Origin: Parcubacteria group bacterium RIFCSPLOWO2_01_FULL_48_18
Lineage (GTDB): Bacteria > Patescibacteriota > Minisyncoccia > UBA6257 > WO2-01-48-18
Length of the DNA stretch: 64,000 bases
Assembly: GCA_001824435.1 (NCBI GenBank)
Contig: MHXH01000017.1
Coordinates: 335 to 64,334, forward strand
Direction: 5' to 3'
The notes below the pieces were generated by a model that was not told the origin of the DNA, made no database searches, and saw only the letters and a program-made list of their open reading frames with translations. How positions within the stretch are numbered: the stretch's first letter is position 1; every line of letters starts with the position of its first letter. The translations under genes and the position numbers were made by a program. Below are positions 1,779-64,000 of the stretch, in pieces.

Positions 1779-2702
1779 ATGCTTTCCATCGGCATCGATA
1801 TCGGCGCGAGCAAAATATTAGGAATCGTCTATGACTCGCGCCGCAAAAAAATTGCCCGTCTTCACATCGCTCAAACAGAAGGACCGCGGTCGGCCGTTGC
1901 AATGGCCGAAAAGCTGATTCTGGAACACCGCATGACCGGCAAAGGAAACATACCGACAGGCATTGCAATTGCCGGGGTGGTAAAAAACAACACGGTGGTG
2001 CGCGCCGCGAACATGAAAGGATGGAACGGAATAAACTTGAAGGCCGCATTTCGACATTTCGATATTTCAGTATTTCGGCATATCGACATTTCACGGTTCC
2101 GGGTCGAAAATGATGCGCAGTGTTTCGGGTACGCAGAATCTCTAATTGGGTACGGAAAAAACAAGGAATCAGCCGTCTTTTTAACCCTGGGGAGCGGCAT
2201 TGGCGGAGCAATTCTTTTAAACGGCTCGTTCTACCGAGGGGCGCATGGGTCGGCAGGAGAGGTGGGGCATACCGTAGCGAAATTCGTCCCGAGCAAAGTC
2301 GAGGGACGAAATTCGAAATTCGAAACCCTCGAGTGGGAATATCTGGCCGCGAAACGGTTTTTTGCTGCACATGGGGTAGACGACCCGAAAGAACTGGAAG
2401 ACAAGGCGCGGAAGGGCAATAAGAAAGCTTTGAACATGTACCGGGAATTCGGCGTCAACCTCGGCGTCGGCCTTGCCAATATCATCAATACGCTCGATCC
2501 GGAAATCATCATTTTGGGCGGCGGCCTCGCGCACACGTACGACCTGTTCATTGCTCCGGCTCGGCAGACCATCAAAAGATTTGTCGTCAATCCTGCGGCG
2601 AGTCGCACCAAAATCGTCAAATCAAAAATCGCTTGGCAGGGGGCAGCGATTGGAGCAGCGCTAATGGCTATCAATCGAGTAGGAGGGAAACTCACTGCGT
2701 AA
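1779..2702 (+). CDS. ROK family sugar kinase (glucokinase-like)
   Basis: MLSIGIDIGASKILG..., ENDAQCFGYAE, GSGIGGAILLNG and GEVGH match the ROK/glucokinase signature. Start chosen at the conserved N-terminal Met. Confidence 0.75.
   Translation: MLSIGIDIGASKILGIVYDSRRKKIARLHIAQTEGPRSAVAMAEKLILEHRMTGKGNIPTGIAIAGVVKNNTVVRAANMKGWNGINLKAAFRHFDISVFRHIDISRFRVENDAQCFGYAESLIGYGKNKESAVFLTLGSGIGGAILLNGSFYRGAHGSAGEVGHTVAKFVPSKVEGRNSKFETLEWEYLAAKRFFAAHGVDDPKELEDKARKGNKKALNMYREFGVNLGVGLANIINTLDPEIIILGGGLAHTYDLFIAPARQTIKRFVVNPAASRTKIVKSKIAWQGAAIGAALMAINRVGGKLTA
2043..2102 (+). repeat. In-frame 8-bp tandem repeat (6 units, atttcgac-like) inside the ROK kinase CDS
   Basis: atttcgac|atttcgat|atttcagt|atttcggc|atatcgac|atttcacg encodes AAFRHFDISVFRHIDISRFR, inserted before the conserved VENDA motif. 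Confidence 0.6.
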
Positions 2703-8020: not shown

Positions 8021-8054
8021 TGCTCTATACTGTAATTATACAATAACGTGCGGG

Positions 8055-15431: not shown

Positions 15432-15632
15432 TTACTTAGGGCTTTTCCACAAATAACTCCCCCCATCTCGCTTCCATCTTCATCCCATCTTCGGCTTTTC
15501 CTCAATCGCAGAATCTTCACCGTAGCTCTGCTACGCCTCAGATTCCGCTCAATCGGAAAAACCGAATCTGGGACAAATCTGAAACCGAATCTGAGGAATT
15601 TATTTGTGGAAAAGCCCTTACTCATCATAAAC
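15432..15632. mobile_element. MITE-like element with ~22-bp terminal inverted repeats and internal GAATCTG heptamer arrays
   Basis: ttagggcttttccacaaataa at 15437-15457 pairs with ttatttgtggaaaagccctta at 15601-15621. Interior has cagattc ... gaatctg x3. Confidence 0.5.
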
Positions 15633-15847: not shown

Positions 15848-16744
15848 TTATTTATGCATTTTCAAATTCTTACGCACACTCGATAACTCCTTCTTGCGCT
15901 TTCGTTCCTCTAGCCTGACGCGTAACCCATTCAAAAACTCTTGAGCATAAGCGGCAAGCAACTCGTCTTCTGATCGGGCGCCCCCCGTTTGACCTACAGT
16001 GCTTTGTGACGCAGAATCCTTTGTTTTTTTATAATCGGGAAGGAACTGTGCCAGGGCCCGAGCCTCGTCGCATACGGTCCGGAGCGGATCGAGTTCCCGC
16101 TTGACCGCTCCAAGCTGCTGCTGCAATGCCGACGGCGGCTCTTTTAACAAATGCTTTGGCACCCTAGTTTCCTGCGCCTTACGCAATTGCTCTTTCAAGT
16201 CTTCCCGCTTCGCCTCAAGCTCCCGCACCCGCTTTACGGCTTCCTTAAACTTGTCCAACGGGGCGAAAAACTCATTGAGGATGACTTGGGGATCGAAAAA
16301 GGGATTCTGGGACCGGGAAACTTCGCTCCGCCTGAATTCCTTTAGCCTCCGATTTCTTTCTTCGGCCGCAAAACGCTCGATGATCTGATACAAAATTGCG
16401 TTTCGGGACATATCGCTATTCGCACGGCCGAAAGAATCAACCATGCTCTGTATTTTGGAGTGAGGGTTTTTGATGTTTTCAGGCCTTACGTTGCGTCCCA
16501 TATCCTGCTTTAGCGATCGCACATAATCTGACTGGTGCCAACTAGAAACCTCGCCTTCGGTAAGTCGTTCCAGGCCGTTTGTAAAGTTGGAAAGCATGCG
16601 GTTTAAAAACGCCTCGGACTCCAAATACCGCGACATTGCCGCAGCCTCCGGGGTCATTTCTCGTCCAACCTCTTCCGGCGCCGGAAACTGCTCTGCAGCG
16701 CCCTCTAAAAACTGCTCATTGTTTAGACTAGATTCGTCTTTCAT
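15848..16744 (-). CDS. hypothetical protein (298 aa, coiled-coil rich)
   Basis: ORF track; no family recognised. Confidence 0.45.
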   Translation of the reverse strand: MKDESSLNNEQFLEGAAEQFPAPEEVGREMTPEAAAMSRYLESEAFLNRMLSNFTNGLERLTEGEVSSWHQSDYVRSLKQDMGRNVRPENIKNPHSKIQSMVDSFGRANSDMSRNAILYQIIERFAAEERNRRLKEFRRSEVSRSQNPFFDPQVILNEFFAPLDKFKEAVKRVRELEAKREDLKEQLRKAQETRVPKHLLKEPPSALQQQLGAVKRELDPLRTVCDEARALAQFLPDYKKTKDSASQSTVGQTGGARSEDELLAAYAQEFLNGLRVRLEERKRKKELSSVRKNLKMHK

Positions 16745-16759
16745 GCTTTTTCAATTAAT

Positions 16760-17602
16760 TCAACCGCGGCCCCTGTCCTTCATTTTCTTTTCCGGTTTCG
16801 GTTTCTGATTCGGATCGAATTCCCTTGCCCAATATTTTCCTTCTGGATCTCCCGTAGCTTCTATATCTGCCATAAGCTCTTTAAGCCGTTCTCCTCCTTC
16901 GCGCACAAGCCGCTCATCTTCTTCGCGCAACTGCTTCTTATCGGGCGTAAGTTCAAACTGGCTCACATCGCGAAGCAATTCTTCGGTCCGCGCATCTAAA
17001 ATGTCTGGGAATTTACTACTCTTCGGCCTCGTGGATTCTCCTGTTAATTCATTCATTTGGGTATATCTACTTTTCATTTGGTCATATCTAAATGGCCGGC
17101 GCTTCTTAATATCAATCCCTCCTTTTGCCATTGTGCGCAATGAATCGATGTACGCATACGAGAGCGCCGTTGAAGGGCGTAACATATCCTCGCCAACACC
17201 TGCTGTTATCAAATAATCCCTCAAGTGCACTACCGCCTCCACAATGTCACGCCTTATTACAAATTGCTGTATGGCGTCCAATTTCGTCCTGTCAAATTGC
17301 ATCGGTTCTTTTCCGCCCTCGCCGCGGCTTAACTGATCCATCAACCCACGCAACCCGAGCCAGAGTTGCACGTCAATCGTATTATCCGCTTCTTTCCATT
17401 GTAAAATCTGTTCCTTTGTCCAAAAATTTTGTCCTCGCTCAGGAGAACGATCAAGCACCCGAAAAAATGCCCGCACTTCAGGAGGAATCTCCGGCTCGGC
17501 CTCATGAGATTCTTTTTTCGATTGTTCAAATTCGTTTGCCAAATGTATGACCTTAGCTACCCCAAACTTTTTCCACGGCTCTTTCCGCAAGCAAAAACGC
17601 AT
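16760..17602 (-). CDS. hypothetical protein (280 aa)
   Basis: ORF track; overlaps the upstream gene by ~50 nt. Confidence 0.45.
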   Translation of the reverse strand: MRFCLRKEPWKKFGVAKVIHLANEFEQSKKESHEAEPEIPPEVRAFFRVLDRSPERGQNFWTKEQILQWKEADNTIDVQLWLGLRGLMDQLSRGEGGKEPMQFDRTKLDAIQQFVIRRDIVEAVVHLRDYLITAGVGEDMLRPSTALSYAYIDSLRTMAKGGIDIKKRRPFRYDQMKSRYTQMNELTGESTRPKSSKFPDILDARTEELLRDVSQFELTPDKKQLREEDERLVREGGERLKELMADIEATGDPEGKYWAREFDPNQKPKPEKKMKDRGRG

Positions 17603-18308
17603 CCTCCCTCGTCTTGTTTATTTGCTGCTGGATAACCGCCCTCTCTTTACCGCTAAGGGAGGTTTTCTTCTCCAGGCCGGTAAGGCCTTCTCCAGTTACT
17701 TTTCTCAGCACGCCCGCAAGTTCTGCCGACATCAAATCGAGTTGCGGAATATCTTCATTGCCGTCAAAGGCTACAACTACATTATGCCTATGGTCTTGGC
17801 TGTGCTCATTAACTGCTTTAAAAAGCTTCGCCCAGGAAAGCCGTGAAACGGGAACGGCCAAGTCAGCTATCACCTTATTTTCTTCGAGAAAGCGCAACAA
17901 ACCTTTTACGGTTTCAGCGCTCCCGGCATATTCGCTTACCAAAAGCGTTCTCCGGCGCGAAGCATCCAGTTTATCAAGATAATCTCTCGCCTCTTCCAAA
18001 AATTCCGGAGACGGTTTCTTGTAAGGTTTTTTCGGCTGTTTGGAAAAACTAAAACCGGGGATAAACACTAATTTCGGCGCGCGGCCCCTGCGAAGCTCCA
18101 TAACACGGTGCAGCGCCAACGAAGGAATGCGACCGCCAATATCATCGCTGACCAAAAGAGAATAGACGCCATCATCGATCTCCCTTTTAAGCATATCAAC
18201 CAGCTTGAGAAAAAACTTCTCGTACTCTCTGATCGCTTCAAGAGAATACTCTCTTCGTGACGACTCTGCGGCTAAAAAATGTTCTGTGCTCTTACCCTCC
18301 TGTTTCAT
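17553..18308 (-). CDS. hypothetical protein (252 aa)
   Basis: Start at MKQEGKST (18306-18308). Confidence 0.45.
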   Translation of the reverse strand: MKQEGKSTEHFLAAESSRREYSLEAIREYEKFFLKLVDMLKREIDDGVYSLLVSDDIGGRIPSLALHRVMELRRGRAPKLVFIPGFSFSKQPKKPYKKPSPEFLEEARDYLDKLDASRRRTLLVSEYAGSAETVKGLLRFLEENKVIADLAVPVSRLSWAKLFKAVNEHSQDHRHNVVVAFDGNEDIPQLDLMSAELAGVLRKVTGEGLTGLEKKTSLSGKERAVIQQQINKTREDAFLLAERAVEKVWGS

Positions 18309-18419
18309 AATGCTTCTTCCATAACTGCTTTTTCTTGCAAAGCGCGGCAGGAATGAAATTACCAAGAAAAATGTGCAACCCCTCGATGCCGCTCGGGGTG
18401 CTCCGTTTCGCAGCCGTAA

Positions 18420-18545
18420 AATCTTCTCCCTCGACAAGCTCGGGATCGAAATTACCAGGCGAAGTGCGCTTATCCATTCGCTCCGCTCAGGATGCTGCAT
18501 TTCGCAGCTGGAAAATCTTCGCCTACGGCTTGATTTTACCAGGCG
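18420..18545. repeat. Tandem duplication of a ~80-bp unit (tttcgcagc.g.aaaatcttc...taccaggcgaagtgcgc)
   Basis: Two direct copies downstream of rpsG. Confidence 0.5.
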
Positions 18546-21818: not shown

Positions 21819-22409
21819 TTAAAACATGATATCTTCCTCGGCTCGCTTATAATTGTGAATTTCTTCGGGGCCAAACCAAAATTCCAGTTCGTGTTCCGCC
21901 TCTTCTAGGGTTTCTGAAGCATGAATGAGATTGTGTATCGCCCGGCGGCCCTTGTTTGCAAGCGCCGCAGAGTCAACCGAAAAATCCCCTCGAATGGTCC
22001 CCATTTCTGCAAATGCCGGAACAGTATTGCCGGACAACTTACGCACCATATCAACGGCGTGTATTCCTTCAACCACCATTTTAACGATCGGTCCGGATAT
22101 CATATAATCCAAAATCCAGCTGCGAACCGATTTGCCGATCTCCGCCGGATCATCGGTGCCCATTTCTGTTACGGGATCCCAGCCGTATTTCTGATAGGTT
22201 GCCAAGGATTTTTCGCCAAGCCGACGGATCCATCTCTCGTCTTTCGGATAGTGTTCGTCGATCTGCTCACGAGTAATCGTGATCATCTCAAGCGCAATAA
22301 TCTTAAGGCCGCGCCGCTCAATGCGGCTCATGATCTCGCCGACAAGGCCTCGCTTCACGCCGTCGGGTTTAACCAATACTACTGTTTTTTCTTCTTTTGG
22401 GTGCCTCAT
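21819..22409 (-). CDS. ndk: nucleoside diphosphate kinase (with a ~45-aa insertion)
   Basis: TVVLVKPDGVKRGLVGEI, NLIHASE. Confidence 0.75.
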   Translation of the reverse strand: MRHPKEEKTVVLVKPDGVKRGLVGEIMSRIERRGLKIIALEMITITREQIDEHYPKDERWIRRLGEKSLATYQKYGWDPVTEMGTDDPAEIGKSVRSWILDYMISGPIVKMVVEGIHAVDMVRKLSGNTVPAFAEMGTIRGDFSVDSAALANKGRRAIHNLIHASETLEEAEHELEFWFGPEEIHNYKRAEEDIMF

Positions 22410-22455
22410 GGTGTCTATACAAAATAGCCGATGCGAAAGGCGCAAAAAGCTATAT

Positions 22456-23898
22456 TTAATTTTTCTTTGATTGCTTTAAGCCCGGCTTCTTGCTCTGCTT
22501 CAGTTGAACCCCTAACTCATTCAGCTGTTTTTTGTCTACTGCTGCCGGTGCGGCCATCAACAAATCCCTGCCGTCGCCGGTCTTCGGGAATGCAATCACT
22601 TCTCTTATATTAGGTTCATTCTGAAGAATCATCAAGATTCGGTCAATGCCCGGCGCAATGCCGCCGTGCGGCGGGACGCCGTATGAAAACGCTTCGAGTA
22701 GATGGCCGAATTTTTCTTCGACGCCCCCTTGGGTATGTCCCATCACTTTAAAAACATCGGCAAGGAGGTCCGGTTCGTGCGTTCGAATGCTTCCTCCTCC
22801 GACTTCATAGCCATTGCATACAAAATCGTACTGATGCGCGAGGACATTTCTTGTATCGTCGCGAAGGCGCGCTCGTAACTCGTCTACGCTTTCTTCTCCA
22901 AGCTGCTGTGGCCGCGTAAAGGGATGATGCGTCGCATCCCACCGCCGCTCTTTTTCTTTCCACTCAAACATCGGAAAATCGACTACGAACGCGAACGCAA
23001 GCTCATCAGGATTATTCTTGTCGCGACGCAAATCCGGCTTGTCGGTGCCGTATTTCTCTATTACCTCCCGATACGACAGCCGCACGAAAGGCTTAAAGGT
23101 AAAATGTTTCTGGGGATATACTGTTTCCACCAACGAAGTGAACAGTTCTTCCACAAGTTGCAATATCTCTTCTTGGCTGACAAAGCTCATCTCTACGTCA
23201 AGCTGGGTAAATTCCGGCTGTCGATCTCCACGCGTGTCCTCATCGCGGAAACATCGCGCAATCTGAAAATACCTCTCAATGCCGGCAACCATGAGGAGCT
23301 GTTTATATTGCTGGGGCGATTGCGGAAGAGCGTAGAATGTTCCCGGATGCAGGCGCGCAGGAACCAGGTAATCGCGCGCGCCCTCCGGGGTAGACTTGCC
23401 CAAAATGGGAGTTTCAATTTCTATAAAACGGCGCTGCGACAAAAAATTCCGTATAAACTGGATTGCCCGATGCCGCATTATAAGGTTCTGCTTCATTCGC
23501 TCGCGCCGCAAATCTATATACCGATATTTCATGCGAAGATCTTCGCCAATTTCGGTTCCGTTTGTATCAACTGCGATCGGCGGCGTTTTCGCCTCTGCCA
23601 AAATTTGAAGTTCGTCCGCAGGAATTTCAAAATCGCCGCTCACGATATTCGGATTCTCCATTCCCTTCGGCCTGCGCTGGACAATTCCCGATATTCGTAT
23701 CACCCACTCGCCCCGCAGCCTGCTTGCGGACTCATAAACTTCTTTATTCTTGGGAAAAAACACGATCTGGGCCACGCCCGTCCTATCACGCAAATCAATA
23801 AAAATAAGCTTGCCGTGGTCACGGCGACTGCCAACCCAGCCGAACAGCTCCACTTTCTTCCCTTCGTTTTTAGAAATTTCGTCTATCCAGGTACGCAT
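22456..23898 (-). CDS. aspS: aspartate--tRNA ligase (compact form)
   Basis: FIDLRDRTG, class II motifs FRDED.R.DRQPEFTQLD and GGGSIR, GIAPGIDR. Start at MRTWIDE; the upstream part of the ORF-track ORF is repeat-derived. Confidence 0.9.
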   Translation of the reverse strand: MRTWIDEISKNEGKKVELFGWVGSRRDHGKLIFIDLRDRTGVAQIVFFPKNKEVYESASRLRGEWVIRISGIVQRRPKGMENPNIVSGDFEIPADELQILAEAKTPPIAVDTNGTEIGEDLRMKYRYIDLRRERMKQNLIMRHRAIQFIRNFLSQRRFIEIETPILGKSTPEGARDYLVPARLHPGTFYALPQSPQQYKQLLMVAGIERYFQIARCFRDEDTRGDRQPEFTQLDVEMSFVSQEEILQLVEELFTSLVETVYPQKHFTFKPFVRLSYREVIEKYGTDKPDLRRDKNNPDELAFAFVVDFPMFEWKEKERRWDATHHPFTRPQQLGEESVDELRARLRDDTRNVLAHQYDFVCNGYEVGGGSIRTHEPDLLADVFKVMGHTQGGVEEKFGHLLEAFSYGVPPHGGIAPGIDRILMILQNEPNIREVIAFPKTGDGRDLLMAAPAAVDKKQLNELGVQLKQSKKPGLKQSKKN

Positions 23899-23935
23899 AG
23901 AACTAGAATCTGGAATCTGGAAGTGATTATTTATG
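23895..23935. repeat. Heptamer array (AGAATCT/AATCTGG type) directly upstream of the aspS start
   Basis: gaactag|aatctgg|aatctgg|aag. Confidence 0.55.
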
Positions 23936-23999
23936 CTTATGATACCCAAAATTAAGGGTCTTGACAAATTCTGTGGGTCTGCTATAATTATGGTGTTAA

Positions 24000-24900
24000 T
24001 CAGCTCCTCGCAAACAAAACAGGGTTTTTGGCATGAATGTCTGGTAGGCTGGCCAAATGGAGAATCGATGCATTTTTATATAGTTATACACTAAGCATCG
24101 ACAATCCATTTCCCCTCACTTGGCCAGCCCATCAGGCATTCGTGCCTACAAGAAGGGGGCTATTATCCGATAGTGGTTCGCTTCGGCGAGCTTCAAAACC
24201 TTGTCCGAGTGCCCCCAATATTTCCCTGCGAAGCAGAGAATGCATTAGCTGATCCGGCGTTCCCCAGTTGACGCCAGCCGGTTTCAGATCCTCAAGGGCA
24301 TGAGGACTCTGCTTCTGCAGGGACCAGTACGTGGGCGGTAAGGCGCATCGGCGTAGCACAGATGTCCGAGACGCCAAAGACCAACGCGAGCCCGGCGACA
24401 GGACCAAATGGGAATCGCGTTGGTTCCGCCCAGTAGGTCATCGGATCCTCAAGGCATGGGGACCCGCAGAACCACAGCATGGGTGAGGGTCCAAGCCTGT
24501 AAAGTCCCTGCCCGCTGAACACCCGGGAAATTCCCGCGTCATCCAGCGCGCGTGTGGATTCCCTCACCCACCAGACCAGGGGCTCTTCGGCAACAATCCC
24601 GCCGGTGCGGCGGAAAACCAATGCAGCGGAATCGCTGCAGCTGTTGAGCCTCCATCGCAGCAACCACGTGGCAGCGCCGCCCGACCCTGTTCGCACACAG
24701 GGTGCGCAAGCGGATGGCTCAACGGCTAAGGACAATCTCCTTGCTGCCACGACGAAACAGGACCCGCGTGCTGTCAAGACTGAGCACACACACACGAGAA
24801 AGCTTGATCTCTCGGCTCGTACGTCGAGCACACGGGTCCTCCTCCAAGGGCGCGATGCCACACCAGCTCGCGCCCTTTTCACTTTTTAATGGGGCAATGC
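24000..24900 (+). ncRNA. GC-rich non-coding island; candidate structured RNA with weak rnpB-like motifs (identity unresolved)
   Basis: GC content is clearly above the flanks and only GC-biased Arg/Ala-rich spurious ORFs are present. Long-range complementary segments exist (cagtacgtgggcgg ... ccgcccagtagg). Plus-strand segments gtgggcggtaaggcgcatcggcg and cccggcgacaggaccaaatggg resemble RNase P RNA GGGUGCGGUAAGAGCGCACCGCG and CCCGGAGCAAGGCCAAAUAGG, in the right order. No convincing P4 was found and the region is about twice rnpB length. Confidence 0.3.
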
Positions 24901-24905
24901 AACTT

Positions 24906-25784
24906 TTATTTGATTCCTTCCTTCTTTGCAAAAATATTAATCGCGCCGGCAGAAACCTCCACCTTGATAGTCCCCTGCGTATCGGTTCTGAAAACCCTAG
25001 ATCCGACTGCCGCAAGGCGCGACAAAGTTTCTTTTGTCGGATGCCCGTAACGGTTTTTTCCGGATTCAATCACCGAAACTTTCGGCTGCACTAATTTCAA
25101 CAGCTGCATCGAAGACGAATACTTTGATCCGTGATGCGGAACTTTCAGCACCTGTGCGCGCAGACCTTTCCCGCGCAGGAGTTTTTCGACTTTCGATGTA
25201 ATATCGCCGGTGAATAATGCGGAAAGCGCGGGTGTTTTTAGGCCGATAACCAACGATCTATCGTTAGGGTTTTTGGCGACAAATTCCGCGGGTGGCCACC
25301 ACACGGTCATTCGAGAATCGCCGTTGGTGATCATATCTTTCGCATCCACAACTACCGTGGGGATGTTTTTTTCTTTTATCGTACGCATCAATTCGCCGTA
25401 CGCGCCGATCTTACTTGCGTCGCCATTATAGAGAAACACGCCAACCTGGTACCGATTCATCACCTCGACAAGGCCGTCAAGATGATCCGCCTGCGGATGC
25501 GTAAGCATCACCACATCAATATATCTGTCCGTCGGCTTCATGACTTCTGCCAGCCGTTCCAACACGCGGCTATTAGGCCCGCCGTCAACAAGTATCTGAA
25601 CTCCGCCTTCAAGATTGATAAATGAACTGTCGCCTTGCCCAATGTCAAGAAAATAGATTGCAAGCGCATCGTGCGCACTGCCGGAGATAACCGTATGCCA
25701 GACAAATATATCGAGCGCGATCAACAAAAAGAAAATAAGAATGAGTAAATTATTGTATTGCTTGCCTTCTTTGAATGAAAACAT
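24906..25784 (-). CDS. comEC: ComEC/Rec2 C-terminal metallo-beta-lactamase domain protein
   Basis: LTHPQADHLDGL (HxHxDH), VPHHGSK; own N-terminal TM helix. Confidence 0.8.
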   Translation of the reverse strand: MFSFKEGKQYNNLLILIFFLLIALDIFVWHTVISGSAHDALAIYFLDIGQGDSSFINLEGGVQILVDGGPNSRVLERLAEVMKPTDRYIDVVMLTHPQADHLDGLVEVMNRYQVGVFLYNGDASKIGAYGELMRTIKEKNIPTVVVDAKDMITNGDSRMTVWWPPAEFVAKNPNDRSLVIGLKTPALSALFTGDITSKVEKLLRGKGLRAQVLKVPHHGSKYSSSMQLLKLVQPKVSVIESGKNRYGHPTKETLSRLAAVGSRVFRTDTQGTIKVEVSAGAINIFAKKEGIK

Positions 25785-25835
25785 GGAACGGGCCTAGAAT
25801 CTAGAATCTAAATTCCAGATTCTAGATTTTGGCAT
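25785..25835. repeat. Inverted heptamer arrays (ctagaat x2 / attctag) between the two comEC parts; contains the stop codon of the upstream part
   Basis: cctagaatctagaatctaaattccagattctagatttt. TAG stop of 25822..27306 lies within ctagatt. Confidence 0.6.
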
Positions 25836-27306
25836 CCCGCGGATAGTATTTTTTTATAAAAACCGCTGCCAGGATATAATAGACGGCAACAAAAAACGGG
25901 CTGAGATGTTCTACGACAAGAGGCAGGCTCACTGTTCCGCTGGCATTGATTAACCATGTTTCATAGGCAAGCGGCAGATACGCGACCCAGCCGAATACGG
26001 TCGAGAGCGTGGTCGAAACATATCCGGCCAGGCCCGTAACAAACCCCAAAAACATGGTAAGCGGAATCAATTCAAGAATAAGAATGTTGGTAAAAAACGA
26101 GATGGGCGAAAAACTGCCGAAATTGCCAAAGACAACAGGGATTACCATCAGTTGCGCGCTCAATGTCGTAAGTCCATGTTCGCGCCACGAAAGAAGCGTC
26201 GGCGCATTCGGTATATGAAATCGCTCTTGTATCGCGGGCATAAGATACACAATGCCGAGGAGCGCCAAAAACGAAAGCTGAAAACCGGCGTCATACCGCA
26301 GTACCTGCGGATTTACGAGAACCATCGCAAATGCCGCGACCATAATCGCATTTCTGATGCTGTGGATCTTGCCAATATAACCCGCCAGAAGAAGGATGCT
26401 CCCCATGATTGCCGCGCGCACCACCGAGGCTTGCGCGCCGGTCATCACCACAAAGGCGATGATGACCGCAACCGAAATCCAGAATGACGGTTTTTTCCCC
26501 AGTCCTATAATAAGCAAAAAATTTGCGATCGACCAGGCAATAATTGAAATATTGTAGCCGGATAATGCGACTAAGTGCGTGGTTCCGGAAAGCTTCATGT
26601 TCTCCTTAAACTTGGCTGAAAATTCAGCCCGTTCACCAAGCAGCAAGCCGTTCATAAACGCCGCCTCGTGCACGGGAAGAGCGCGGCCGATTTTTTCCTC
26701 AAAACTGTTTTTTATCCGATACAGCGCCGCTTTGATCGGAGACTGCGTACTCCGCGCCAGAAGTTTTGCATCAGGATAATACACAATCCCGTAAATCCGG
26801 TCTTTCCCAAGATAATCGGCATAAGCTCTCGGCTCCGGTTTTTGGATGACTCCCTTCAGTTCAACCACATCTCCGTATGCATATGCCGGATACTTTACCG
26901 TGCGCATCAACACTCTTCCTCCGTAAGGCTTCTTGTGTAACTCCAGTATGGCTGTCTGCGTATCCGGGCCTTGCGTCGGATCGGCGATGACTATCGCGGT
27001 AACCGATAAGATACGACCCATGGGCGCCGAAAAGGAATTGCGAGAAACGGATGCGTATCCGGAGGCGTACGCCGCTCCTAATATCGAGGCACAAAGAAGA
27101 ATCGAGAAAAAAAGAAATTTCATGCGGGGCGACTCTCCAATCGATGAAAATGTCGCTGGCAAACCGATATATGGCAGAGAGAATAATACGACAGCGGCCA
27201 AAAGCGCCGCCAGTGCCGCAATCCAAAAATTACCGGCGTATGCAAATAACCCGACTCCTATCAAAAACGAAAGCATCGCATAAAACGCGGTGTCAGATAC
27301 GTGCAT
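25822..27306 (-). CDS. comEC: ComEC/Rec2 N-terminal and competence transmembrane domain protein
   Basis: Polytopic membrane protein with competence-domain-like TM block (GTTHLVALSGYNISII...). Confidence 0.75.
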   Translation of the reverse strand: MHVSDTAFYAMLSFLIGVGLFAYAGNFWIAALAALLAAVVLFSLPYIGLPATFSSIGESPRMKFLFFSILLCASILGAAYASGYASVSRNSFSAPMGRILSVTAIVIADPTQGPDTQTAILELHKKPYGGRVLMRTVKYPAYAYGDVVELKGVIQKPEPRAYADYLGKDRIYGIVYYPDAKLLARSTQSPIKAALYRIKNSFEEKIGRALPVHEAAFMNGLLLGERAEFSAKFKENMKLSGTTHLVALSGYNISIIAWSIANFLLIIGLGKKPSFWISVAVIIAFVVMTGAQASVVRAAIMGSILLLAGYIGKIHSIRNAIMVAAFAMVLVNPQVLRYDAGFQLSFLALLGIVYLMPAIQERFHIPNAPTLLSWREHGLTTLSAQLMVIPVVFGNFGSFSPISFFTNILILELIPLTMFLGFVTGLAGYVSTTLSTVFGWVAYLPLAYETWLINASGTVSLPLVVEHLSPFFVAVYYILAAVFIKKYYPRDAKI

Positions 27307-29042: not shown

Positions 29043-29570
29043 TCAAAATTCAATTCCTAACTTTGCAATCTCGCCGCGGTTGAACGGATGTTTAATCTCA
29101 CACATTTCGGTGACAAGGTCAGCGCGGCGGACAAATGACTTCGGCGCATTCCGGCCGGTCAGAATCACCAGCTTTTCAAATGGCACATATTGAATCGCCA
29201 CGAGCACCTGTTTGGACGAAATCAGTTTCAAGCTCACTGCCACATTCACTTCATCCAAAACAATTACATCCCATCGTCCGCTCCGCAATTCTTTTCTAAA
29301 ATGCGCCAACGCCTTTTGCGCGGCCCTCTTGTGCGCCGAACGCGGCAACTTGTCGCCTAAAATTCCCACAAACCCCAAGCCCATCTTCTGAACCTGGAAC
29401 CTGGAACCTGGAATTTGGAATTTGGTGCCAAAATAGTCTTCGCCGGATTTCCACGGGCCTTTGATGAATTGAATCATAAGCGCCTGGCGGCCGCGGCCAA
29501 GCGCGCGAACCATCTGGCCCAACGCGGCCGTGGTTTTACCCTTTCCATTACCGGTAAAAATAATAACCAT
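29043..29570 (-). CDS. cob(I)yrinic acid a,c-diamide adenosyltransferase-like (CobO/BtuR family)
   Basis: FTGNGKGKTTAALG P-loop, IQFIKGPWKSGE, VVLDE. Confidence 0.6.
   Translation of the reverse strand: MVIIFTGNGKGKTTAALGQMVRALGRGRQALMIQFIKGPWKSGEDYFGTKFQIPGSRFQVQKMGLGFVGILGDKLPRSAHKRAAQKALAHFRKELRSGRWDVIVLDEVNVAVSLKLISSKQVLVAIQYVPFEKLVILTGRNAPKSFVRRADLVTEMCEIKHPFNRGEIAKLGIEF
29385..29440 (-). repeat. Heptamer tandem repeat (aaattcc x2, aggttcc x3) in-frame within the CobO-like CDS
   Basis: Encodes KFQIPGSRFQVQ. Same heptamer family as the 5'UTR arrays. Confidence 0.55.
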
Positions 29571-34329: not shown

Positions 34330-34605
34330 ATACGAGTTACGCAGTTAAACATATATTGTTGGGTCGAGGCTTGCCTGCCGGCAGGCAAGCATGTTTTTTG
34401 ATCTTTTCTAACAAAGAAATTATTGTCCTGTGAGCGTTATAGCGGAGGAGTGGTCACAAATAAAGGAGGCGAGTAGCGAGCACAGCCTGTTCGAGTCCCG
34501 AGTCCCGACGAAGGAGGGACGAGGTCGAGTTCTGCGCGCAGCGCAGCGAGCCGACTATTATTTGTCCACTCCGAAGCGTCAAGCGAACAGGATAATAATT
34601 TCGAA

Positions 34606-35493: not shown

Positions 35494-35593
35494 CATGATT
35501 GGAATATAGAATTTAGAATCTAGAATTTGGAATACCAGCTTCCATGTTCTCAACTTCGGTAAATCCCAGATTCCAGATTCTAAATTCTAGATT
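35494..35593. repeat. Inverted heptamer arrays (tagaat x4 ... cagatt/ctagatt x5) between the zwf stop and the gnd start
   Basis: atagaat|ttagaat|ctagaat|ttggaat ... cccagat|tccagat|tctaaat|tctagat|tctaaac. Confidence 0.65.
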
Positions 35594-37030
35594 CTAAACA
35601 ATAGGTCCTGCGCTTCCCGGCTCATACACCAGAAGCGGCACTTCATTATTTTTCCACCCATCAAGGACGCTGTCAATGAATTTCCAACTTGCCATCACCT
35701 CTTCCGTGCTCGCAAATAACGTCTGATCTCCAGAGATACAATCAAGCAGAATTTTCTCGTATGCATCTACGAGTTCGCCGTTTTTCTCGATGCCAGAATA
35801 GTTGAGCGCCAGGGGGCGCTCTTCAAGTTCCATGGCGACGCCCGGGCGCTTTGTCCAAAACGATACCGCAACCTCCTGATTAGGCTGAAGCTGGAAATAC
35901 AACACATTCTGCACGTGGCGGTCCGGCGGACACAAACAAGGATCGACATGTTTGAACGTAACAAATGTCTCTACTACGGATCGATTGAGCCGCTTGCCGC
36001 TTTCAAGATTAAAAGGAACTCCTTCCCAACGAGGATTATCAATAAAAGCTGCCAAGCGAAAATATGTTTCTGTCTTCGAGTCTGGTGACACGCCACCCTC
36101 TTGGCGATAACCGATATATTGCGCCCTTCGCGTATCTCTTTTAAGCTGATCGCGCGAAACAGGTCGAAGCGCATACAGTGCGGCTGCCCGCGCTTTTCTG
36201 ATCTCGCTTGCGACAAATACGGCAGGCCGCTCCATGGCAATGAGAGCGAGCATTTGCAGCATATGATTTTGGCCCACGTCACGAAGCGTTCCGACACGAT
36301 CGTAAAATGCTCCTCTTTCTTCGACTCCGGCTTCTTCAAGCATTTTGATTTCAACCTTTTCGATGGCGCGCCCGTCCCACGAAGATTCAAAAATAGAATT
36401 TGAAAATCTCAATGCCAGGATATTTTGCACCGATTCCTTGGCCAAGTAATGATCGATGCGAAAAACTTGTTCCTCCTTGAACAATTTCCCGAGCATGGCG
36501 TCGAGCCGTTCTGCGGTTTTCAAATCGCTGCCGAACGGTTTTTCCACCAACACGCGAGTCCATCCGGTCTCATCGCTGCACGGCTTCGTTAAACCGGAAT
36601 TCGCCAGATGAGTAAAAATCTCCTCATAGAATTGCGGCGGGACGGCAAGATAAAATAATTTGTTTGAACACATTCCCCATGCTTCGTCTATCGACTCAAG
36701 GTTTCTCGCAAGCGCCGCATAACTGTTCGAATCGGAAAAATTACCTCGTTGATATCTCCACAACTCGGCAAAAGATTCAAAGTCCTTTTTTACGATCCCC
36801 GCCATCCCACCCGAAAAATTTACGGCCATGGAGCGAAAACCATTATCGCCCAGATCCTTCCGCGCAAAGCCGACAATCGCGCATTTATCGGGAAGCCAAC
36901 CGCGATTCCATAAATGAAACAATGCCGGAGTCAATTTTTTCTTCATGAGATCTCCGGTAGCGCCGAATATGGTAAGAACGGTTGGGGCGTTAAAATTTTT
37001 CTTATGGGGCATGTTCATATTATAATTCAT
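35594..37030 (-). CDS. zwf: glucose-6-phosphate 1-dehydrogenase
   Basis: IFGATGDL, RIDHYLAKE, EKPFG. Confidence 0.9.
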   Translation of the reverse strand: MNYNMNMPHKKNFNAPTVLTIFGATGDLMKKKLTPALFHLWNRGWLPDKCAIVGFARKDLGDNGFRSMAVNFSGGMAGIVKKDFESFAELWRYQRGNFSDSNSYAALARNLESIDEAWGMCSNKLFYLAVPPQFYEEIFTHLANSGLTKPCSDETGWTRVLVEKPFGSDLKTAERLDAMLGKLFKEEQVFRIDHYLAKESVQNILALRFSNSIFESSWDGRAIEKVEIKMLEEAGVEERGAFYDRVGTLRDVGQNHMLQMLALIAMERPAVFVASEIRKARAAALYALRPVSRDQLKRDTRRAQYIGYRQEGGVSPDSKTETYFRLAAFIDNPRWEGVPFNLESGKRLNRSVVETFVTFKHVDPCLCPPDRHVQNVLYFQLQPNQEVAVSFWTKRPGVAMELEERPLALNYSGIEKNGELVDAYEKILLDCISGDQTLFASTEEVMASWKFIDSVLDGWKNNEVPLLVYEPGSAGPIV

Positions 37031-43905: not shown

Positions 43906-43990
43906 CCTAAAAAGCTTATTAGCTTGTAGCTTTTTAGCCTCTTAGAACGAACTCTACAAGCTACAAGCTACAAGCTACAAGCTCACTCTC
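43906..43990. repeat. Heptamer tandem repeat (ctacaag x5) with an inverted partial copy in the dnaJ 5' region
   Basis: agcttgtagc ... ctacaagctacaagctacaagctacaagct. Confidence 0.6.
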
Positions 43991-58469: not shown

Positions 58470-58579
58470 CAACATCAAATCAATAATATATGCTCAACAA
58501 TGCAAAACAGCGGAATGTCCGCTGTTTTCGCTTCTAAAAACCTTTTTCATAATCCCGCACTAATTTTCTGCAATAGTAT

Positions 58580-58695
58580 CCCGGCGAATCCTACTTTCCC
58601 CGGCCACCGAAGCAGCGAGTATCATCAGAGTTTGACGCTTTCACTTCCGTGTTCGGAATGAGAACGGGTGGGTCACGCCAAACTAAATCACCGGG
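58580..58695 (-). rRNA. rrf: 5S ribosomal RNA
   Basis: Minus strand reads cccggtgatttagtttggcgtgacccacccgttctcattccgaacacggaagtgaaagcg...gattcgccggg. Conserved CCCACC..CCGAAC.CGGAAGU core and a terminal helix. Confidence 0.7.
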
Positions 58696-58812
58696 AAGCT
58701 GCTGCAGAAAATTTAGTGCGGGAGGGAGGGATGGGACACACATGACTTAACCGCTGGGAAGTCCAAAATTTTAAGCGGGGCGGGGTCGGAATAAAATGAG
58801 GTGATACCCGCC

Positions 58813-59112: not shown

Positions 59113-59811
59113 ATATATTTCTTTCTATAGCCACACAAAGTGCAGAAATTCGAACAACAAAGTATTTCCATATATTTCTATAATATTTCCACATATTTCT
59201 GAAATACATTGAAATATGCTTCGCGAAACAAATAGAAATATCCTGTTTTGTATTTGCGCTTCCGTTGCTCCGCAACGGTTGGCTGACGCATTCTCCGACT
59301 GAAACGTCAGGGCTGCCCTTCAATAAATTCAGGGCTAAGTTTCTACGGGATTATTTATTCCGATTCCCCTAATTCACGCTCTCGATCATCCAGTCGAAGC
59401 AATTCATCGTCTATTTCATCTTTCCTTTCCCGGATATCTCTTAACCTTTGGTTATCTCCATCTATGCCAAGGTTTAGTTCAAAATCTTTCATCCGTTGTA
59501 ATTCATTCTCCAGCTCCTCCTTTTTTTACGAATCTCCAACGACCTTTCAGCAATTGTTTGTTTCTCTATTTTTTTGATTTTTCCATGTTAGTAAAACAAA
59601 TAACCTCCCTCGGTATTATATCCTATCAAACCCAGGTTATAAGTTCAACCTCGGGGTTGCTCTGATGAGCAATAGGGCTTCACCGAAGTGTCAATTGTCA
59701 ATTATTACCTCCGATGGGTGTGGGGATTAATTTTTTTGGATTATTAGTACTCCTCGGCTGAAATCCTTACGGATCTTACACCTGGAGCCTATCAGCCAGC
59801 GCTCCGCACTG

Positions 59812-59945
59812 GAATTTCTAATTCCTAATTTCTAATGACTAATCAAATCCAGATTTCGAAATCCCAATAACCAAAATATTAGAAATTGGCCATTTGGGCA
59901 TTGAAACATTGATTAGGAATTAGGTCAATTAGAAATTAGACATTT
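59812..59945. repeat. AT-rich heptamer-array element (aatttct/attagaa units) inserted in the 3'-terminal variable helix of 23S
   Basis: Shares attaggtcaattagaaatt with the copy at 63303-63418. rRNA homology resumes on both sides. Confidence 0.6.
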
Positions 59946-60013
59946 CCGGTGCGAAGCACTGGTTTTTACGTGGTAGTCTTCCACGATCCTCAAACGATAC
60001 CTTATCTTAGGGG

Positions 60014-60047
<34 letters not shown>

Positions 60048-60482: not shown

Positions 60483-60793
<311 letters not shown>

Positions 60794-60872
60794 TTTCACG
60801 TACCCTTTTAAATGGCGAACAGCCATACGCTTCCCACCTTCTCCAGCGGGGCGCTAGGGTGAGCCGACATCG

Positions 60873-62888: not shown

Positions 62889-63302
62889 CCCATTTAAACT
62901 GCCCACCAGGCACTGTCCAAACTGGGTTTATGGAAAACCAATTCCCAATTCGTTAGAGCTTACAGTTTTAAAGACGGGTGTTTCATTGGCGGCTCCAGTC
63001 CGCCCGAAAGCAGGCCTTCAAAGCCTCCCCGCTACGCTACGCATTAAAACCATAAGACCAATACCAAGCTACAGTAAAGCTTCTAGGGTCTTTTCGTCTT
63101 GCCGCAGGTACCCCGCGTCTTCACGGGGATCGCATTTTCACCGAGCTCCTCGTTGAGACAGTTGCCCAGTCGTTACGCCTTTCGTGCGCTCCGGAACTTA
63201 CCCGGAAAGGAATTGCGCTACCTTAGAACGATTATAGTTATCGCTGACATTGACGAGGGCTTACAACAGTGAGCCGTACACACCTCACTAAAGTTCGGTG
63301 CT

Positions 63303-63418
63303 CAAATTTCTAAATCCTAACTTCTAATTTCTAAATAAATCCCAGTAACCGAATTCCGAAATTGGGTATTGGAAATTTATTAGAAATTAGGTCAATTAGA
63401 AATTGGTCATTCAAGTAT
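63303..63418. repeat. AT-rich heptamer-array element inserted in 23S helix 68 region
   Basis: The insert splits helix strands cactaaggcgag / ctttagtgagg. Homologous to 59812-59945. Confidence 0.6.
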
Positions 63419-64000
63419 CTCGCCTTAGTGAGATGCATACGACCCCCATCGTTTAACCTTCTCGCATCGGTCAGGCGTCACCCCCTATACATCCTCTTAC
63501 GAGTTAGCAGGGAGCTGTGTTTTTGATAAACAGTCGCCAGGCAAACTTTCGCTGCGTCCCTCGCACCTTGCGGTGCTCGGGAAGGCCTTATCGCTAACTT
63601 ACGGCCGCTTTTTTGCCGAGTTCCTTAACGAGGACTCACTCGTTCTCCTTGGGCTACTCGCCCCGCCCACCAGTGTCGGATTGCGGTACGGAACCAATAC
63701 TATTAACTCTAGAAGTTTTTCTTGGATCGCTCTTCAGCCGGATTGCCCTGGTAAAAACCAAAACTTTCGTCTGCTTTCGGAATTTGCCATAAAAGACAGT
63801 TGAACGGATTTGCCTGTCCAACATTCCTTCAAGCAAACAGCGTCAAACCATTAAGACGCCCGGCCTTATTTCAACCGTCGCTCCATCGAAATAGTATCGG
63901 TGGGACGGAATATTAACCGTCTGTCCATCACCTTCGGCTTTCGCCATCGGCTTAGGACCGCCTCACCCGTGGTTGATTGCCATTGCCACGGAAACCTTGG

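What the first reader, a model, noticed from the sequence alone, without database searches (positions are those of the whole stretch)
35494..35593. Heptamer (AGAATCT/CAGATTC-type) inverted arrays recur in 5'UTRs, inside a CDS and inside 23S rRNA
Arrays of 7-bp units in opposed orientation occur at several sites immediately upstream of start codons: 23895-23935 (aspS), 25785-25835 (comEC part 2) and 35494-35593 (gnd). Further copies are at 15432-15632, 59130-59230 and 43906-43990 (a CAAGCTA variant before dnaJ). One copy lies in-frame within the CobO-like gene (29385-29440, encoding KFQIPGSRFQVQ), and two lie inside 23S rRNA. Where ORFs read through them they give the same FQIP(D/G)S peptide. 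These are either a MITE family or conserved 5'-leader structures such as protein-binding iterons or translational operators.
Basis: seen in the sequence. Interest (0 to 1): 0.65.

Follow-up and report, generated by a model that had tools for sequence, protein, structure and literature searches.

The report
Seven-base-repeat hairpins in a CPR bacterium
A tiny groundwater bacterium (Parcubacteria, CPR) carries short DNA palindromes built from tandem 7-base units, wedged between genes, at two helix tips of its 23S rRNA and in-frame inside an enzyme gene; they look like a new local variant of the poorly understood heptamer repeats of cyanobacteria and giant sulfur bacteria, not like gene-specific regulatory leaders.

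Summary
The repeats are real. Period-7 arrays are enriched (9 versus 0-1 for other periods). The unit dimer YARATTC x2 occurs 9 times against 0.06 expected. They are identical in up to 10 independent assemblies.

Window 35496-35600 is a 105-bp hairpin with 38-nt arms of TRGAAYY units and a 29-nt loop (-39 kcal/mol, z -6.5). It fills the whole zwf-gnd spacer. The zwf stop (TAG) lies in the first unit, and the gnd ATG directly follows the last.

- three inter-cistronic hairpins (zwf|gnd, comEC_N|comEC_C, orf355|dnaJ);
- two paralogous hairpins inserted in terminal loops of 23S rRNA;
- two direct arrays (aspS leader, CobO coding sequence);
- two unrelated repeats (15432-15632, 59130-59230).

The organism is a Parcubacteria/Paceibacterota metagenome-assembled genome (MAG). 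None of the three inter-genic copies that could be checked is present at the orthologous site of relatives. The CobO array is not an insertion. It sits at the same place across the phylum, with lineage-specific units.

Best reading: heptanucleotide-repeat-derived palindromic elements, mostly selfish or neutral, which probably act as RNase III-type hairpins once transcribed. This is a new variant of a known kind, of moderate interest.

The parts
35496..35600 (-). Type-a heptamer hairpin that fills the zwf-gnd spacer. Arms are 35496-35533 and 35563-35600 (5-6 units of TRGAAYY / YARATTC); the loop is 35534-35562. The zwf stop TAG is at 35594-35596, inside the first unit. The gnd ATG is at 35496-35494.
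   Evidence: 38-nt arms, 84% complementary; -39.3 kcal/mol, z -6.5; identical in 4 other assemblies; Zwf lacks about 15 C-terminal residues.
25794..25831 (-). Minimal type-a hairpin (2+2 units, no core) between the two comEC ORFs. The stop TAG of the Competence-domain ORF is at 25822-25824, inside the array. The ATG of the metallo-beta-lactamase-domain ORF is at 25784.
   Evidence: -23.8 kcal/mol, z -4.2; identical in 10 assemblies; absent in relatives L089 and L222.
23899..23926 (-). Direct array of about 4 units. In mRNA sense it reads CUUCCAGAUUCCAGAUUCUAGUUCU and abuts the aspS ATG (23898-23896). There is no inverted partner.
   Evidence: z -0.3; not present at the true aspS start of L089.
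29390..29424 (-). In-frame direct array of 5 units inside the CobO-like gene. In mRNA sense it reads (CAAAUUC)x2 (CAGGUUC)x3 and encodes KFQIPGSRFQV.
   Evidence: homologs are the same length; species-specific units at the same site.
43912..43985 (-). Hairpin of the same architecture but with the unrelated unit CAAGCUA / UAGCUUG. It lies between the orf355 stop (TGA, 43995-43993) and the dnaJ GTG (43905). A promoter-like site at 44030-44003 lies just upstream.
   Evidence: -37.5 kcal/mol, z -4.2; no similarity to the other elements.
59783..59958 (-). rrl-A: a 176-nt insertion replacing a 2-nt terminal loop near the 3' end of 23S rRNA (Rfam LSU model position about 2845). Its inner part, 59813-59944, is a type-b heptamer hairpin (unit UAGAAAU / AAUUUCU).
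   Evidence: z -5.4; paralogue of rrl-B.
63279..63439 (-). rrl-B: a 161-nt insertion replacing a 4-nt terminal loop of 23S rRNA (Rfam model about 1894-1899; I infer this is the tip of helix 68). Its inner part, 63303-63409, is a type-b heptamer hairpin.
   Evidence: (z -3.9).
2307..2325 (.). Minor direct heptamer array, CGAAATT x2.7, inside the ROK-family ORF (1743-2702).
34492..34508 (.). Minor direct heptamer array, CGAGTCC x2.4, in the spacer downstream of gnd.

Best explanation
The feature at 35496-35600, and its relatives in the window, are small palindromic repeat elements built from tandem arrays of a degenerate 7-nt unit. They occur in a Parcubacteria/Paceibacterota (CPR) genome that is generally prone to heptanucleotide repeats.

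Shown:
- The arrays are real, non-random and stable across assemblies.
- The unit is nearly self-complementary (AGA-A-TCT against AGA-T-TCT, with CTAG at every unit junction). A direct array therefore needs only changes at the central base to become a hairpin.
- Hairpin-form copies have been duplicated to new sites. There are two paralogous copies in 23S loop tips, and a relative lies between rplJ and rplL in another organism.
- Inter-genic copies are absent from the orthologous sites of relatives.
- (TAGAATC)n carries TAG in all three frames within three units. It supplies the stop codons of zwf and comEC_N, and Zwf is about 15 residues short.

Inferred:
- Arrays arise and are homogenised by replication slippage in 7-nt steps.
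- Inverted arrays arise by intra-array template switching.
- Copies survive only where they do no harm: in spacers between same-strand genes, at solvent-exposed rRNA helix tips, and in frame in a tolerant protein segment.
- Once transcribed, the 20-36-bp near-perfect helices are expected to be RNase III substrates. Cleavage would separate cistrons and, as with classical 23S intervening sequences, fragment or trim the rRNA.
- Any benefit to the host is secondary.
For: - Enrichment and reality.
- Hairpin stability.
- No strand asymmetry, so these are DNA-level palindromes.
- Organism identity.
- Lineage specificity: there is only 1 YARATTC dimer in 1.34 Mb of other Paceibacterota loci.
- Absence at orthologous sites: the comEC junction in L089 and L222, the aspS start in L089 and L222, and upstream of gnd in L220.
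- rrl-A and rrl-B are paralogues. The core alignment scores 28 against a shuffle mean of 12.8 (0 of 3000 shuffles as high), and the 5' arms match at 30 of 35 positions, including an irregular unit.
- A related type-b element lies in the rplJ-rplL spacer of metagenome contig L124.
- Both rRNA copies sit exactly in terminal loops.
- Zwf truncation.
- The same stop-in-arm and ATG-after-arm architecture appears in an unrelated gene pair of a distant organism, L103, whose DnaJ is 45% identical.
- Heptamer arrays with other units are scattered through relatives, and about half lie inside coding sequences.
Against: - No target-site duplication, no discrete terminal inverted repeat and no mobilising enzyme was found. 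Pfam found no transposase, reverse transcriptase or RAYT among the window ORFs scanned.
- Type-a copies share only the degenerate unit. The loop similarity between the zwf-gnd element and L103 is not significant (p 0.4-0.8). Independent local origin of each type-a copy therefore cannot be excluded.
- All four inter-genic copies end 0-10 nt from a start codon. The aspS array does so inside a spacer of about 390 nt, where position was not forced. This resembles the start-proximal bias of TAACTGA repeats (PMC4679880) and hints at function.
- The zwf-gnd element and L103 both carry a TATATT variant unit next to the downstream ATG. It breaks hairpin complementarity, which looks selected.
- The CobO array has kept its position and length across a phylum. 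That is hard to square with pure junk.
- RNase III processing is pure inference.
Confidence: 0.55

Rival explanations
1. The arrays are cis-regulatory RNA sites. Tandem heptamers next to start codons would bind a multimerising single-strand RNA-binding protein (cold-shock protein, S1 or CsrA-like) or act as translation enhancers or operators in a genome that mostly lacks Shine-Dalgarno sequences. The hairpin forms would sequester or expose those sites.
For: - All four inter-genic copies end 0-10 nt upstream of a start codon.
- Direct arrays in mRNA sense are always in the RAUUCY orientation: aspS, CobO and the PHP-domain gene in L108.
- Most genes here lack a Shine-Dalgarno sequence.
- There is precedent: TAACTGA repeats in Beggiatoaceae are mostly a few nucleotides upstream of start codons, and CspB binds one heptamer per protein (PMC4679880).
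Against: - None of the 3 inter-genic copies tested is conserved at orthologous sites.
- The downstream genes are functionally unrelated.
- Copies also lie in rRNA loops and inside coding sequences.
- In three cases the proximity to a start codon is forced, because the element fills the whole spacer.
- There is no G-U strand signal.
- The orientation count has only n=3 independent cases.
Confidence: 0.2
2. The hairpins are host-adopted 'operon punctuation'. They would be RNase III or other processing sites, plus outward -10-like boxes (TATATT; TAGAAT in every unit). Together these would end the upstream reading frame and start a leaderless transcript or processed mRNA for the downstream gene, as Correia elements do in Neisseria.
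For: - Each hairpin spans exactly from stop to start.
- TATATT lies 6-8 nt before the ATG in both the zwf-gnd element and L103, at the cost of a stem mismatch.
- Many genes in the window have TATAAT 6-15 nt before the ATG, which looks leaderless.
- Correia elements (CREE) create promoters at their ends and are bound or cleaved by RNase III (PMC2649163).
Against: - The TATATT observation rests on n=2.
- The comEC, aspS and dnaJ copies have no such box.
- The promoter scan found no -35/-10 pair on the gene strand at the gnd-proximal arm.
- No transcript data are available.
Confidence: 0.15
3. Each array is an independent local product of polymerase slippage, that is, ordinary simple-sequence repeats. 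There would be no dispersal and no element family at all.
For: - Heptanucleotide simple-sequence repeats are the most over-represented class in many prokaryotes (Mrazek et al. 2007, as summarised in PMC4679880).
- Type-a copies share no core.
- Two arrays of the same degenerate unit are expected to be about 79% identical by chance.
- The dnaJ copy has its own unit.
Against: - rrl-A, rrl-B and L124 share a non-repetitive core and irregular units.
- Slippage alone does not explain why several loci use the same unit family, nor the inverted arrangement with precise two-fold symmetry.
Confidence: 0.08
4. The arrays are an assembly artefact or a chance pattern.
For: One metagenome contig (L006) joins the zwf-side array to a different locus, and another (L005) ends inside the array. 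The arrays do therefore disturb assembly.
Against: The sequence is identical in up to 10 independent assemblies from NCBI, ENA, JGI and Logan. Shuffle controls give 0 matches.
Confidence: 0.01

Closest known systems
TAACTGA heptamer direct repeats of marine Beggiatoaceae, some cyanobacteria and Bacteroidetes (MacGregor 2015, PMC4679880)
   Same: - Tandem 7-nt units, 2-6 copies per set.
- Mostly inter-genic and ending a few nucleotides before start codons that lack a Shine-Dalgarno sequence.
- A few copies overlap the ends of ORFs or lie inside ORFs.
- Function unknown; a post-transcriptional role has been proposed.
   Different: - The unit sequence is different and degenerate (TRGAAYY and others), not one fixed heptamer.
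- The host phylum is different (CPR).
- In the Beggiatoaceae genome only 1 of 170 sets is inverted. Here, inverted arrays forming long hairpins are the main form.
- Copies in rRNA loops and a phylum-conserved array inside a coding sequence were not among the TAACTGA contexts I found when searching that paper.
Cyanobacterial STRR heptamer repeats and the small dispersed repeats (SDR) nested in them (Mazel 1990; Elhai 2008; both from memory, papers not held)
   Same: - Many heptamer families in one genome.
- Small hairpin-forming elements embedded in heptamer arrays.
- Nested palindromes. The rrl-B core looks like the L124 core with 16 extra nucleotides at its centre.
   Different: - No conserved 21-27-nt core is shared by type-a copies.
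- The host is not a cyanobacterium.
- I could not compare the sequences directly.
Correia repeat-enclosed elements (CREE/NEMIS) of Neisseria (PMC2649163)
   Same: - Palindromic elements of about 100-150 bp, co-transcribed with neighbouring genes.
- They form hairpins that RNase III binds or cleaves, and they can create promoters at their ends.
- This is the best analogue for how the hairpins probably work.
   Different: - CREE have defined 26-bp terminal inverted repeats, a TA target duplication and a conserved core, and occur in hundreds of near-identical copies.
- None of these features was found here.
23S rRNA intervening sequences (IVS) of Salmonella, Leptospira, Coxiella and others (from memory)
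   Same: Extra stem-loops of about 100-200 nt replace the tip of a 23S helix.
   Different: - Classical IVS lie in helices 25 and 45. The two here are at Rfam model positions about 1895 and about 2845.
- Their excision is untested.
- Being built of heptamer arrays, and being paralogous to an inter-cistronic element, has no precedent in the papers I searched.
Rickettsia palindromic elements (RPE) and REP/BIME (PMC10969869; PMC3116915)
   Same: - Selfish palindromes tolerated in transcribed regions.
- RPEs sit in frame inside protein-coding genes.
- REPs sit between the genes of operons.
   Different: - The CobO array is a direct repeat and not an insertion.
- No RAYT-type gene was seen.
- The arms are repeat arrays, not unique sequence.

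Membership tests
Bacterial heptanucleotide tandem-repeat arrays (STRR / TAACTGA type) | Tandem copies (2 or more) of a 7-nt unit, over-represented relative to chance and to other periods | tested here: met
Bacterial heptanucleotide tandem-repeat arrays (STRR / TAACTGA type) | Mostly inter-genic, start-codon-proximal, with an orientation bias towards the downstream gene | tested here: inconclusive
   All 4 inter-genic copies lie within 10 nt of a start codon, but 3 of them fill the whole spacer. Only 64 kb of this genome was available. In relatives about half of the arrays lie inside coding sequences.
Bacterial heptanucleotide tandem-repeat arrays (STRR / TAACTGA type) | The specific published unit (TAACTGA; STRR1-3) | tested here: not met
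   The units here are TRGAAYY, TAGAAAT and CAAGCTA.
MITE (miniature inverted-repeat transposable element) | Defined terminal inverted repeats flanked by target-site duplications | tested here: not met
   The arms are degenerate arrays that can pair in several registers. No direct repeats flank any copy; the flanks of the rRNA copies are complementary to each other, not duplicated.
MITE (miniature inverted-repeat transposable element) | Multiple near-identical copies at unrelated sites | tested here: inconclusive
   Type b has 2 paralogues plus 1 in another organism. Type-a copies share only the unit.
MITE (miniature inverted-repeat transposable element) | A cognate autonomous element or transposase with matching ends | not testable with these tools
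   None was found among the window ORFs scanned against Pfam. The rest of the genome could not be read.
REP / REPIN | Association with a RAYT (IS200/IS605-like) gene | not testable with these tools
   No such gene is in the window.
23S rRNA intervening sequence (IVS) | An extra stem-loop replacing the terminal loop of a 23S helix | tested here: met
23S rRNA intervening sequence (IVS) | Excision by RNase III, giving a fragmented 23S rRNA | not testable with these tools
   This needs RNA data.
Intrinsic (Rho-independent) terminator | A G+C-rich stem followed by a run of U | tested here: not met
   The stems are A+U-rich, no T-run follows, and the scan reports none at the elements.
Phase-variable contingency repeat | Unit-number polymorphism between closely related strains | tested here: not met
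   The arrays are identical in every assembly that reaches them: 10 for the comEC hairpin, 5 for the aspS array, 4 for the zwf-gnd element. The samples come from only a few sites, so this is a weak test.
Conserved 5'-leader / riboswitch-like RNA | Conservation at orthologous loci, with covariation or strand-specific pairing | tested here: not met
   The elements are absent in L089, L222 and L220. Folding energies are equal on both strands. There is no Rfam family; only spurious miRNA-model hits appeared.

The most novel reading that the evidence does not exclude
Paceibacterota may possess a dedicated, still unknown heptamer-repeat system: a trans-acting factor that recognises or generates ARATTCY-type 7-nt arrays.

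Three observations would then be explained:
- One array has been kept at fixed length and position inside the CobO gene across the phylum. Its units are repeatedly homogenised to a new lineage-specific sequence (AAATTCC, AATTTTC, AGATTTA, AGGTTCC).
- Hairpin versions are copied into rRNA helix tips and inter-cistronic spacers.
- Those hairpins act as self-contained operon punctuation, with a stop codon in every frame, a processing helix, and a -10-like box followed by an ATG for a leaderless downstream message.
Probability: 0.12. Interest if true: 0.8.

Novelty: new variant of a known kind. Interest (0 to 1): 0.52.

Why it matters
Heptamer repeats have been known in cyanobacteria since 1990 and in giant sulfur bacteria since 2015. 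Neither their origin nor their function is understood.

Three findings extend the picture:
- They occur in the tiny, streamlined genomes of CPR bacteria, where little DNA is thought to be dispensable.
- They take a hairpin form that invades 23S rRNA helix tips.
- One array has been held in frame in a conserved enzyme across a phylum while its unit keeps being rewritten.

These features give a compact comparative system with hundreds of small MAGs. In it one could look for the factor that makes '7' special and test whether such hairpins shape operon expression and rRNA expansion.

There are practical consequences too. The arrays break and mis-join metagenome assemblies (L005, L006). They also lead ORF listings and gene callers to over-extend some ORFs (aspS and gnd in this window). 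Both affect CPR genome annotation.

Tried and rejected
1. 'The CobO array is an inserted element': rejected. 102 of the 111 homologs in which the flanking motifs could be located have exactly the same segment length. Salmonella CobA has LEPHGVEFQV at that place.

2. 'The zwf-gnd element and L103 share a homologous core in opposite orientation' was my own reading. I rejected it after a shuffle test (p 0.4-0.8). The arm identity of about 76% is what the degenerate unit gives by chance.

3. 'The aspS array is conserved in L089' was my own reading. I rejected it because the called L089 start is a spurious 137-codon extension. The true ATG has no array upstream.

4. Terminator: rejected, because there is no U-tract and no scan hit.

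5. Contingency locus: no copy-number variation in up to 10 assemblies.

6. Phage origin: the 73 hits in viral contigs are about what I estimate chance alone would give.

Only the multi-unit hits were used.

8. Synteny around ychF in 80 GTDB genomes gave no orthologous neighbours.

9. Rfam found no family for any element.

10. Elhai 2008 could not be read.

11. A gene-strand promoter at the gnd-proximal arm was not found by the consensus scan.

Full report
WHAT IS THERE

The window is a run of mostly minus-strand genes from a Parcubacteria/Paceibacterota (CPR) MAG. It carries small rpoB and rpoC genes, a split comEC, and a 23S rRNA gene holding two group I introns and two LAGLIDADG ORFs. YchF is at best 69% identical to Paceibacterota MAGs. 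The same DNA is NCBI GCA_001824395.1 contig MHXF01000031.1 and also occurs in several ENA, JGI and Logan assemblies.

At 35496-35600 there is a 105-bp near-palindrome. Its two 38-nt arms are 84% complementary and each is made of 5-6 tandem 7-nt units (TRGAAYY on one arm, YARATTC on the other). They flank a unique 29-nt loop. On the transcribed strand it folds at -39.3 kcal/mol, with z -6.5 and no shuffle as good.

It occupies the entire spacer between zwf and a gnd-like gene. The zwf stop codon TAG (35594-35596) lies in the first unit, and the gnd ATG (35496) follows the last unit directly. Zwf ends two residues after its conserved GSxGP motif. It lacks the last 15 or so positions of the Pfam G6PD_C profile, whereas a homolog continues for 17 more residues. 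The array has therefore probably replaced the original 3' end of zwf.

IS IT MORE THAN CHANCE?

Yes.
- Arrays of period 7 with score >=10 number 9. Every other period from 4 to 12 gives 0-1.
- YARATTCYARATTC occurs 9 times against 0.06 expected.
- The zwf-gnd element is identical in four other assemblies. The comEC hairpin is identical in ten, and the aspS array in the five of them that reach it. These are neither artefacts nor visibly hypervariable.
- The arrays do disturb assembly. One contig ends inside the array and another joins it to a foreign locus.

(a) Type-a hairpins, with units TAGAATC, TGGAATC or TAGAATT. These are zwf|gnd and a minimal 2+2-unit version at 25794-25831 between the two comEC ORFs. 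In the comEC copy the upstream TAG again lies inside the array, and the ATG follows 10 nt after it.

(b) A hairpin of the same architecture but with the unrelated unit CAAGCTA. It lies between orf355 and dnaJ at 43912-43985.

(c) Type-b hairpins, with unit TAGAAAT, inside 23S rRNA.
- One insertion is 161 nt long and replaces a 4-nt terminal loop at Rfam model position about 1895. I infer this is the tip of helix 68.
- The other is 176 nt long and replaces a 2-nt loop at about 2845, in the hairpin before the last helix.

(d) Direct arrays that do not fold. One abuts the aspS ATG (23899-23926). One lies in frame in the CobO-like gene (29390-29424).

(e) Two things that do not belong to the family.
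- 15432-15632 is a single-copy hairpin of about 180 nt with roughly 12-nt periodicity.
- 59130-59230 is a 10/21-nt repeat.

ARE THE COPIES RELATED TO EACH OTHER?

The two rRNA insertions are true paralogues.
- Their non-repetitive cores align with a score of 28, against a shuffle mean of 12.8 (0 of 3000 shuffles as high).
- Their 5' arms match at 30 of 35 positions, including an irregular unit.
- A related element lies between rplJ and rplL on a sediment-metagenome contig, L124. It shares a 21-nt identical run and the same AAATCCC...AATTGGG core. The hairpin is maintained across all three copies.

Type-a copies are less clear. The zwf-gnd element, the comEC hairpin and a hairpin in contig L103 resemble each other. 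However, two arrays of this degenerate unit are expected to be about 79% identical anyway. The loop similarity I first saw with L103 is not significant.

L103 comes from a distant organism (DnaJ 45% identical). Even so, it shows the same layout: a GNAT ORF ends at a TAG in the 5' arm, and a YbaK-like ORF starts right after the 3' arm. Both L103 and the window element carry the variant unit TATATT next to that ATG. This costs a stem mismatch and remains unexplained.

CONSERVATION

- A syntenic relative, L089 (CobO 69% identical), has the same split comEC, but its two ORFs overlap with no spacer. Another relative, L222, has an unrelated 195-nt spacer.
- The aspS array is absent upstream of the true aspS start in L089. 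An earlier impression to the contrary came from an over-extended gene call, corrected. It is also absent in L222.
- A 70%-identical gnd in L220 has no array.
- So none of the three inter-genic copies is conserved.
- The heptamer hairpins fold equally well on both strands, so there is no G-U signature of RNA-level selection.

THE CobO ARRAY

This is the most unexpected part, because it is not an insertion.
- 102 of the 111 homologs in which the flanking motifs could be located have the same 16-residue segment. Salmonella CobA has LEPHGVEFQV there.
- The family consensus KFQIPNSKFQIR is exactly the three-frame translation of (AAATTCC)n.
- At DNA level, different species carry different arrays at this one site. 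L222 has perfect AAATTCC x4.6. L087 has perfect AATTTTC x4. L088 has AGATTTA x5. The window has AGGTTCC x3 plus AAATTCC x2. L089 and L223 have decayed versions.
- The variable residue of the F-x-I motif is identical in the two 7-residue repeats in 35 of 96 distinct sequences. Shuffling gives 14.3 on average and at most 24 in 2000 trials. Phylogenetic non-independence applies to this count.

This is concerted evolution of a 7-nt array at fixed length inside a conserved gene. Other in-frame heptamer arrays occur in relatives: mnmA in L089, a second array in the L222 CobO, a PHP-domain gene in L108, and an orthologous pair in L013 and L031.

HOW IT MOST LIKELY WORKS

Shown:
- The unit is nearly self-complementary, with CTAG at every junction.
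- (TAGAATC)n holds TAG in all three frames within three units.
- Hairpin copies have been duplicated.
- Copies sit only at tolerant places.

Inferred:
- Slippage in 7-nt steps makes and homogenises the arrays.
- Intra-array template switching turns part of an array into its complement (mechanism as in PMC8794818).
- Hairpins are copied into loop tips and spacers by an unknown route.
- The 20-36-bp RNA helices are RNase III substrates, by analogy with 23S intervening sequences and with Correia elements (PMC2649163).

I put 0.55 on this 'heptamer-repeat-derived, largely selfish palindromic element' reading. I put 0.2 on a start-codon-linked regulatory role of the TAACTGA kind (PMC4679880). I put 0.15 on host-adopted operon punctuation with an outward -10 box.

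COMPARISON WITH KNOWN SYSTEMS AND NOVELTY

The elements belong with bacterial heptanucleotide repeat arrays. They fail the tests for MITE (no target duplication, no defined ends), terminator, contingency locus and conserved leader RNA.

Full-text searches found no paper linking heptamer repeats to CPR/Patescibacteria. A 2024 MITE review mentions neither heptamers nor rRNA.

Three features appear to be new: the hairpin form, the rRNA loop-tip copies, and the phylum-wide concerted array in CobO. The underlying phenomenon is not new. Verdict: a new variant of a known kind.

LIMITS

- No transcript data were available.
- The comparison with cyanobacterial SDR elements rests on memory.

Noticed in passing
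window 15439-15617 (minus strand), directly upstream of the fusA ATG at 15428: A single-copy hairpin of about 180 nt with perfect 18-nt outer inverted repeats. It folds at -109.5 kcal/mol (z -14.4) on the transcribed strand but only -72 kcal/mol on the other strand, because 9 pairs are G-U. This is a strong sign of an RNA-level structure. The arms have roughly 11-12-nt periodicity and contain CAGAUUC motifs. There is no Rfam family and no second copy in the window or in any fetched locus.
   Followed up: partly
window 58578-64000 (minus strand): The rRNA operon is a mosaic.
- The 23S gene carries two ORF-less group I introns (60134-60453 and 60533-60807).
- It also carries two LAGLIDADG endonuclease ORFs (61010-61591 and 61941-62573), presumably within further introns, plus the two heptamer-hairpin insertions.
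- The 23S 3' end (about 59723) is separated from the 5S gene (58578-58696) by about 1 kb.
- That spacer holds small ORFs and a 10/21-nt repeat at 59159-59206.
   Followed up: partly
window 8046-8165; also 1718-1769 and 2047-2092: About 14 tandem copies of an 8-nt unit (ATCTCGAY) fill the spacer directly upstream of a TTGACA/TATAAT promoter-like site, followed by the ATG of the ORF at 6620-8020. Related TCGAYATN 8-mers form a perfect 17-bp hairpin at the start of the ROK-family gene and a second array inside it. This may be an operator or iteron array. It is unrelated to the heptamers.
   Followed up: partly
window 23961-24290 (plus strand, antisense to the flanking genes): A perfect TTGACA-17-TATAAT promoter is followed by a highly structured region of about 300 nt (MFE -116 kcal/mol, z -6.9, with a long hairpin at 24025-24151). 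It matches no Rfam family. This is a candidate unannotated small RNA between aspS and the next gene.
   Followed up: partly
window 24906-27306; L089 10538-12872; L222 5976-8335: comEC is split into a DUF4131+Competence ORF and a separate metallo-beta-lactamase ORF in this genome and in two relatives. The junctions differ: a 37-nt hairpin spacer here, overlapping ORFs in L089, and a 195-nt spacer in L222. The split is therefore ancestral in this clade, and the junction is a hot spot for change.
   Followed up: partly
window 15848-18500: Three ORFs with no Pfam match (298, 280 and 315 aa) are inserted between rpsG and fusA. This interrupts the otherwise universal rpsL-rpsG-fusA (str) operon order.
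   Followed up: no
window, upstream regions of about 40 genes: Shine-Dalgarno motifs are rare. Many genes have a TATAAT-like box ending 6-15 nt before the start codon, which suggests widespread leaderless or very short-leader mRNAs.
   Followed up: no
L089 3219-3253; L222 5622-5655 and 1066-1131; L013 11492-11518 and L031 11517-11543; L108 2740-2780: Other Paceibacterota and metagenome contigs carry heptamer arrays with quite different units.
- (GTCAAAA)x5 lies in frame in mnmA.
- (ATAGCAA)x4.9 is a second array in CobO.
- AATGACT and GTTATAA arrays lie between rsmH and the next ORF.
- Orthologous GAAATTA arrays occur in two species.
- An NSRFQILNSRFSIL repeat lies in a PHP-domain gene.
   Followed up: partly
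L005 (contig end at 4461) and L006 4064-4230: Metagenome contigs of the same species break inside the zwf-side heptamer array or continue from it into a different locus. Such arrays are a source of contig breaks and chimeric joins in CPR MAGs. They also over-extend listed or called ORFs, for example aspS listed as 503 aa against 480 aa and gnd as 315 aa against 296 aa in this window.
   Followed up: partly
window 21819-22445: The nucleoside-diphosphate kinase ORF is 208 aa long and matches the 135-position Pfam profile in two separate stretches. It therefore seems to carry an internal insertion or an N-terminal extension.
   Followed up: no
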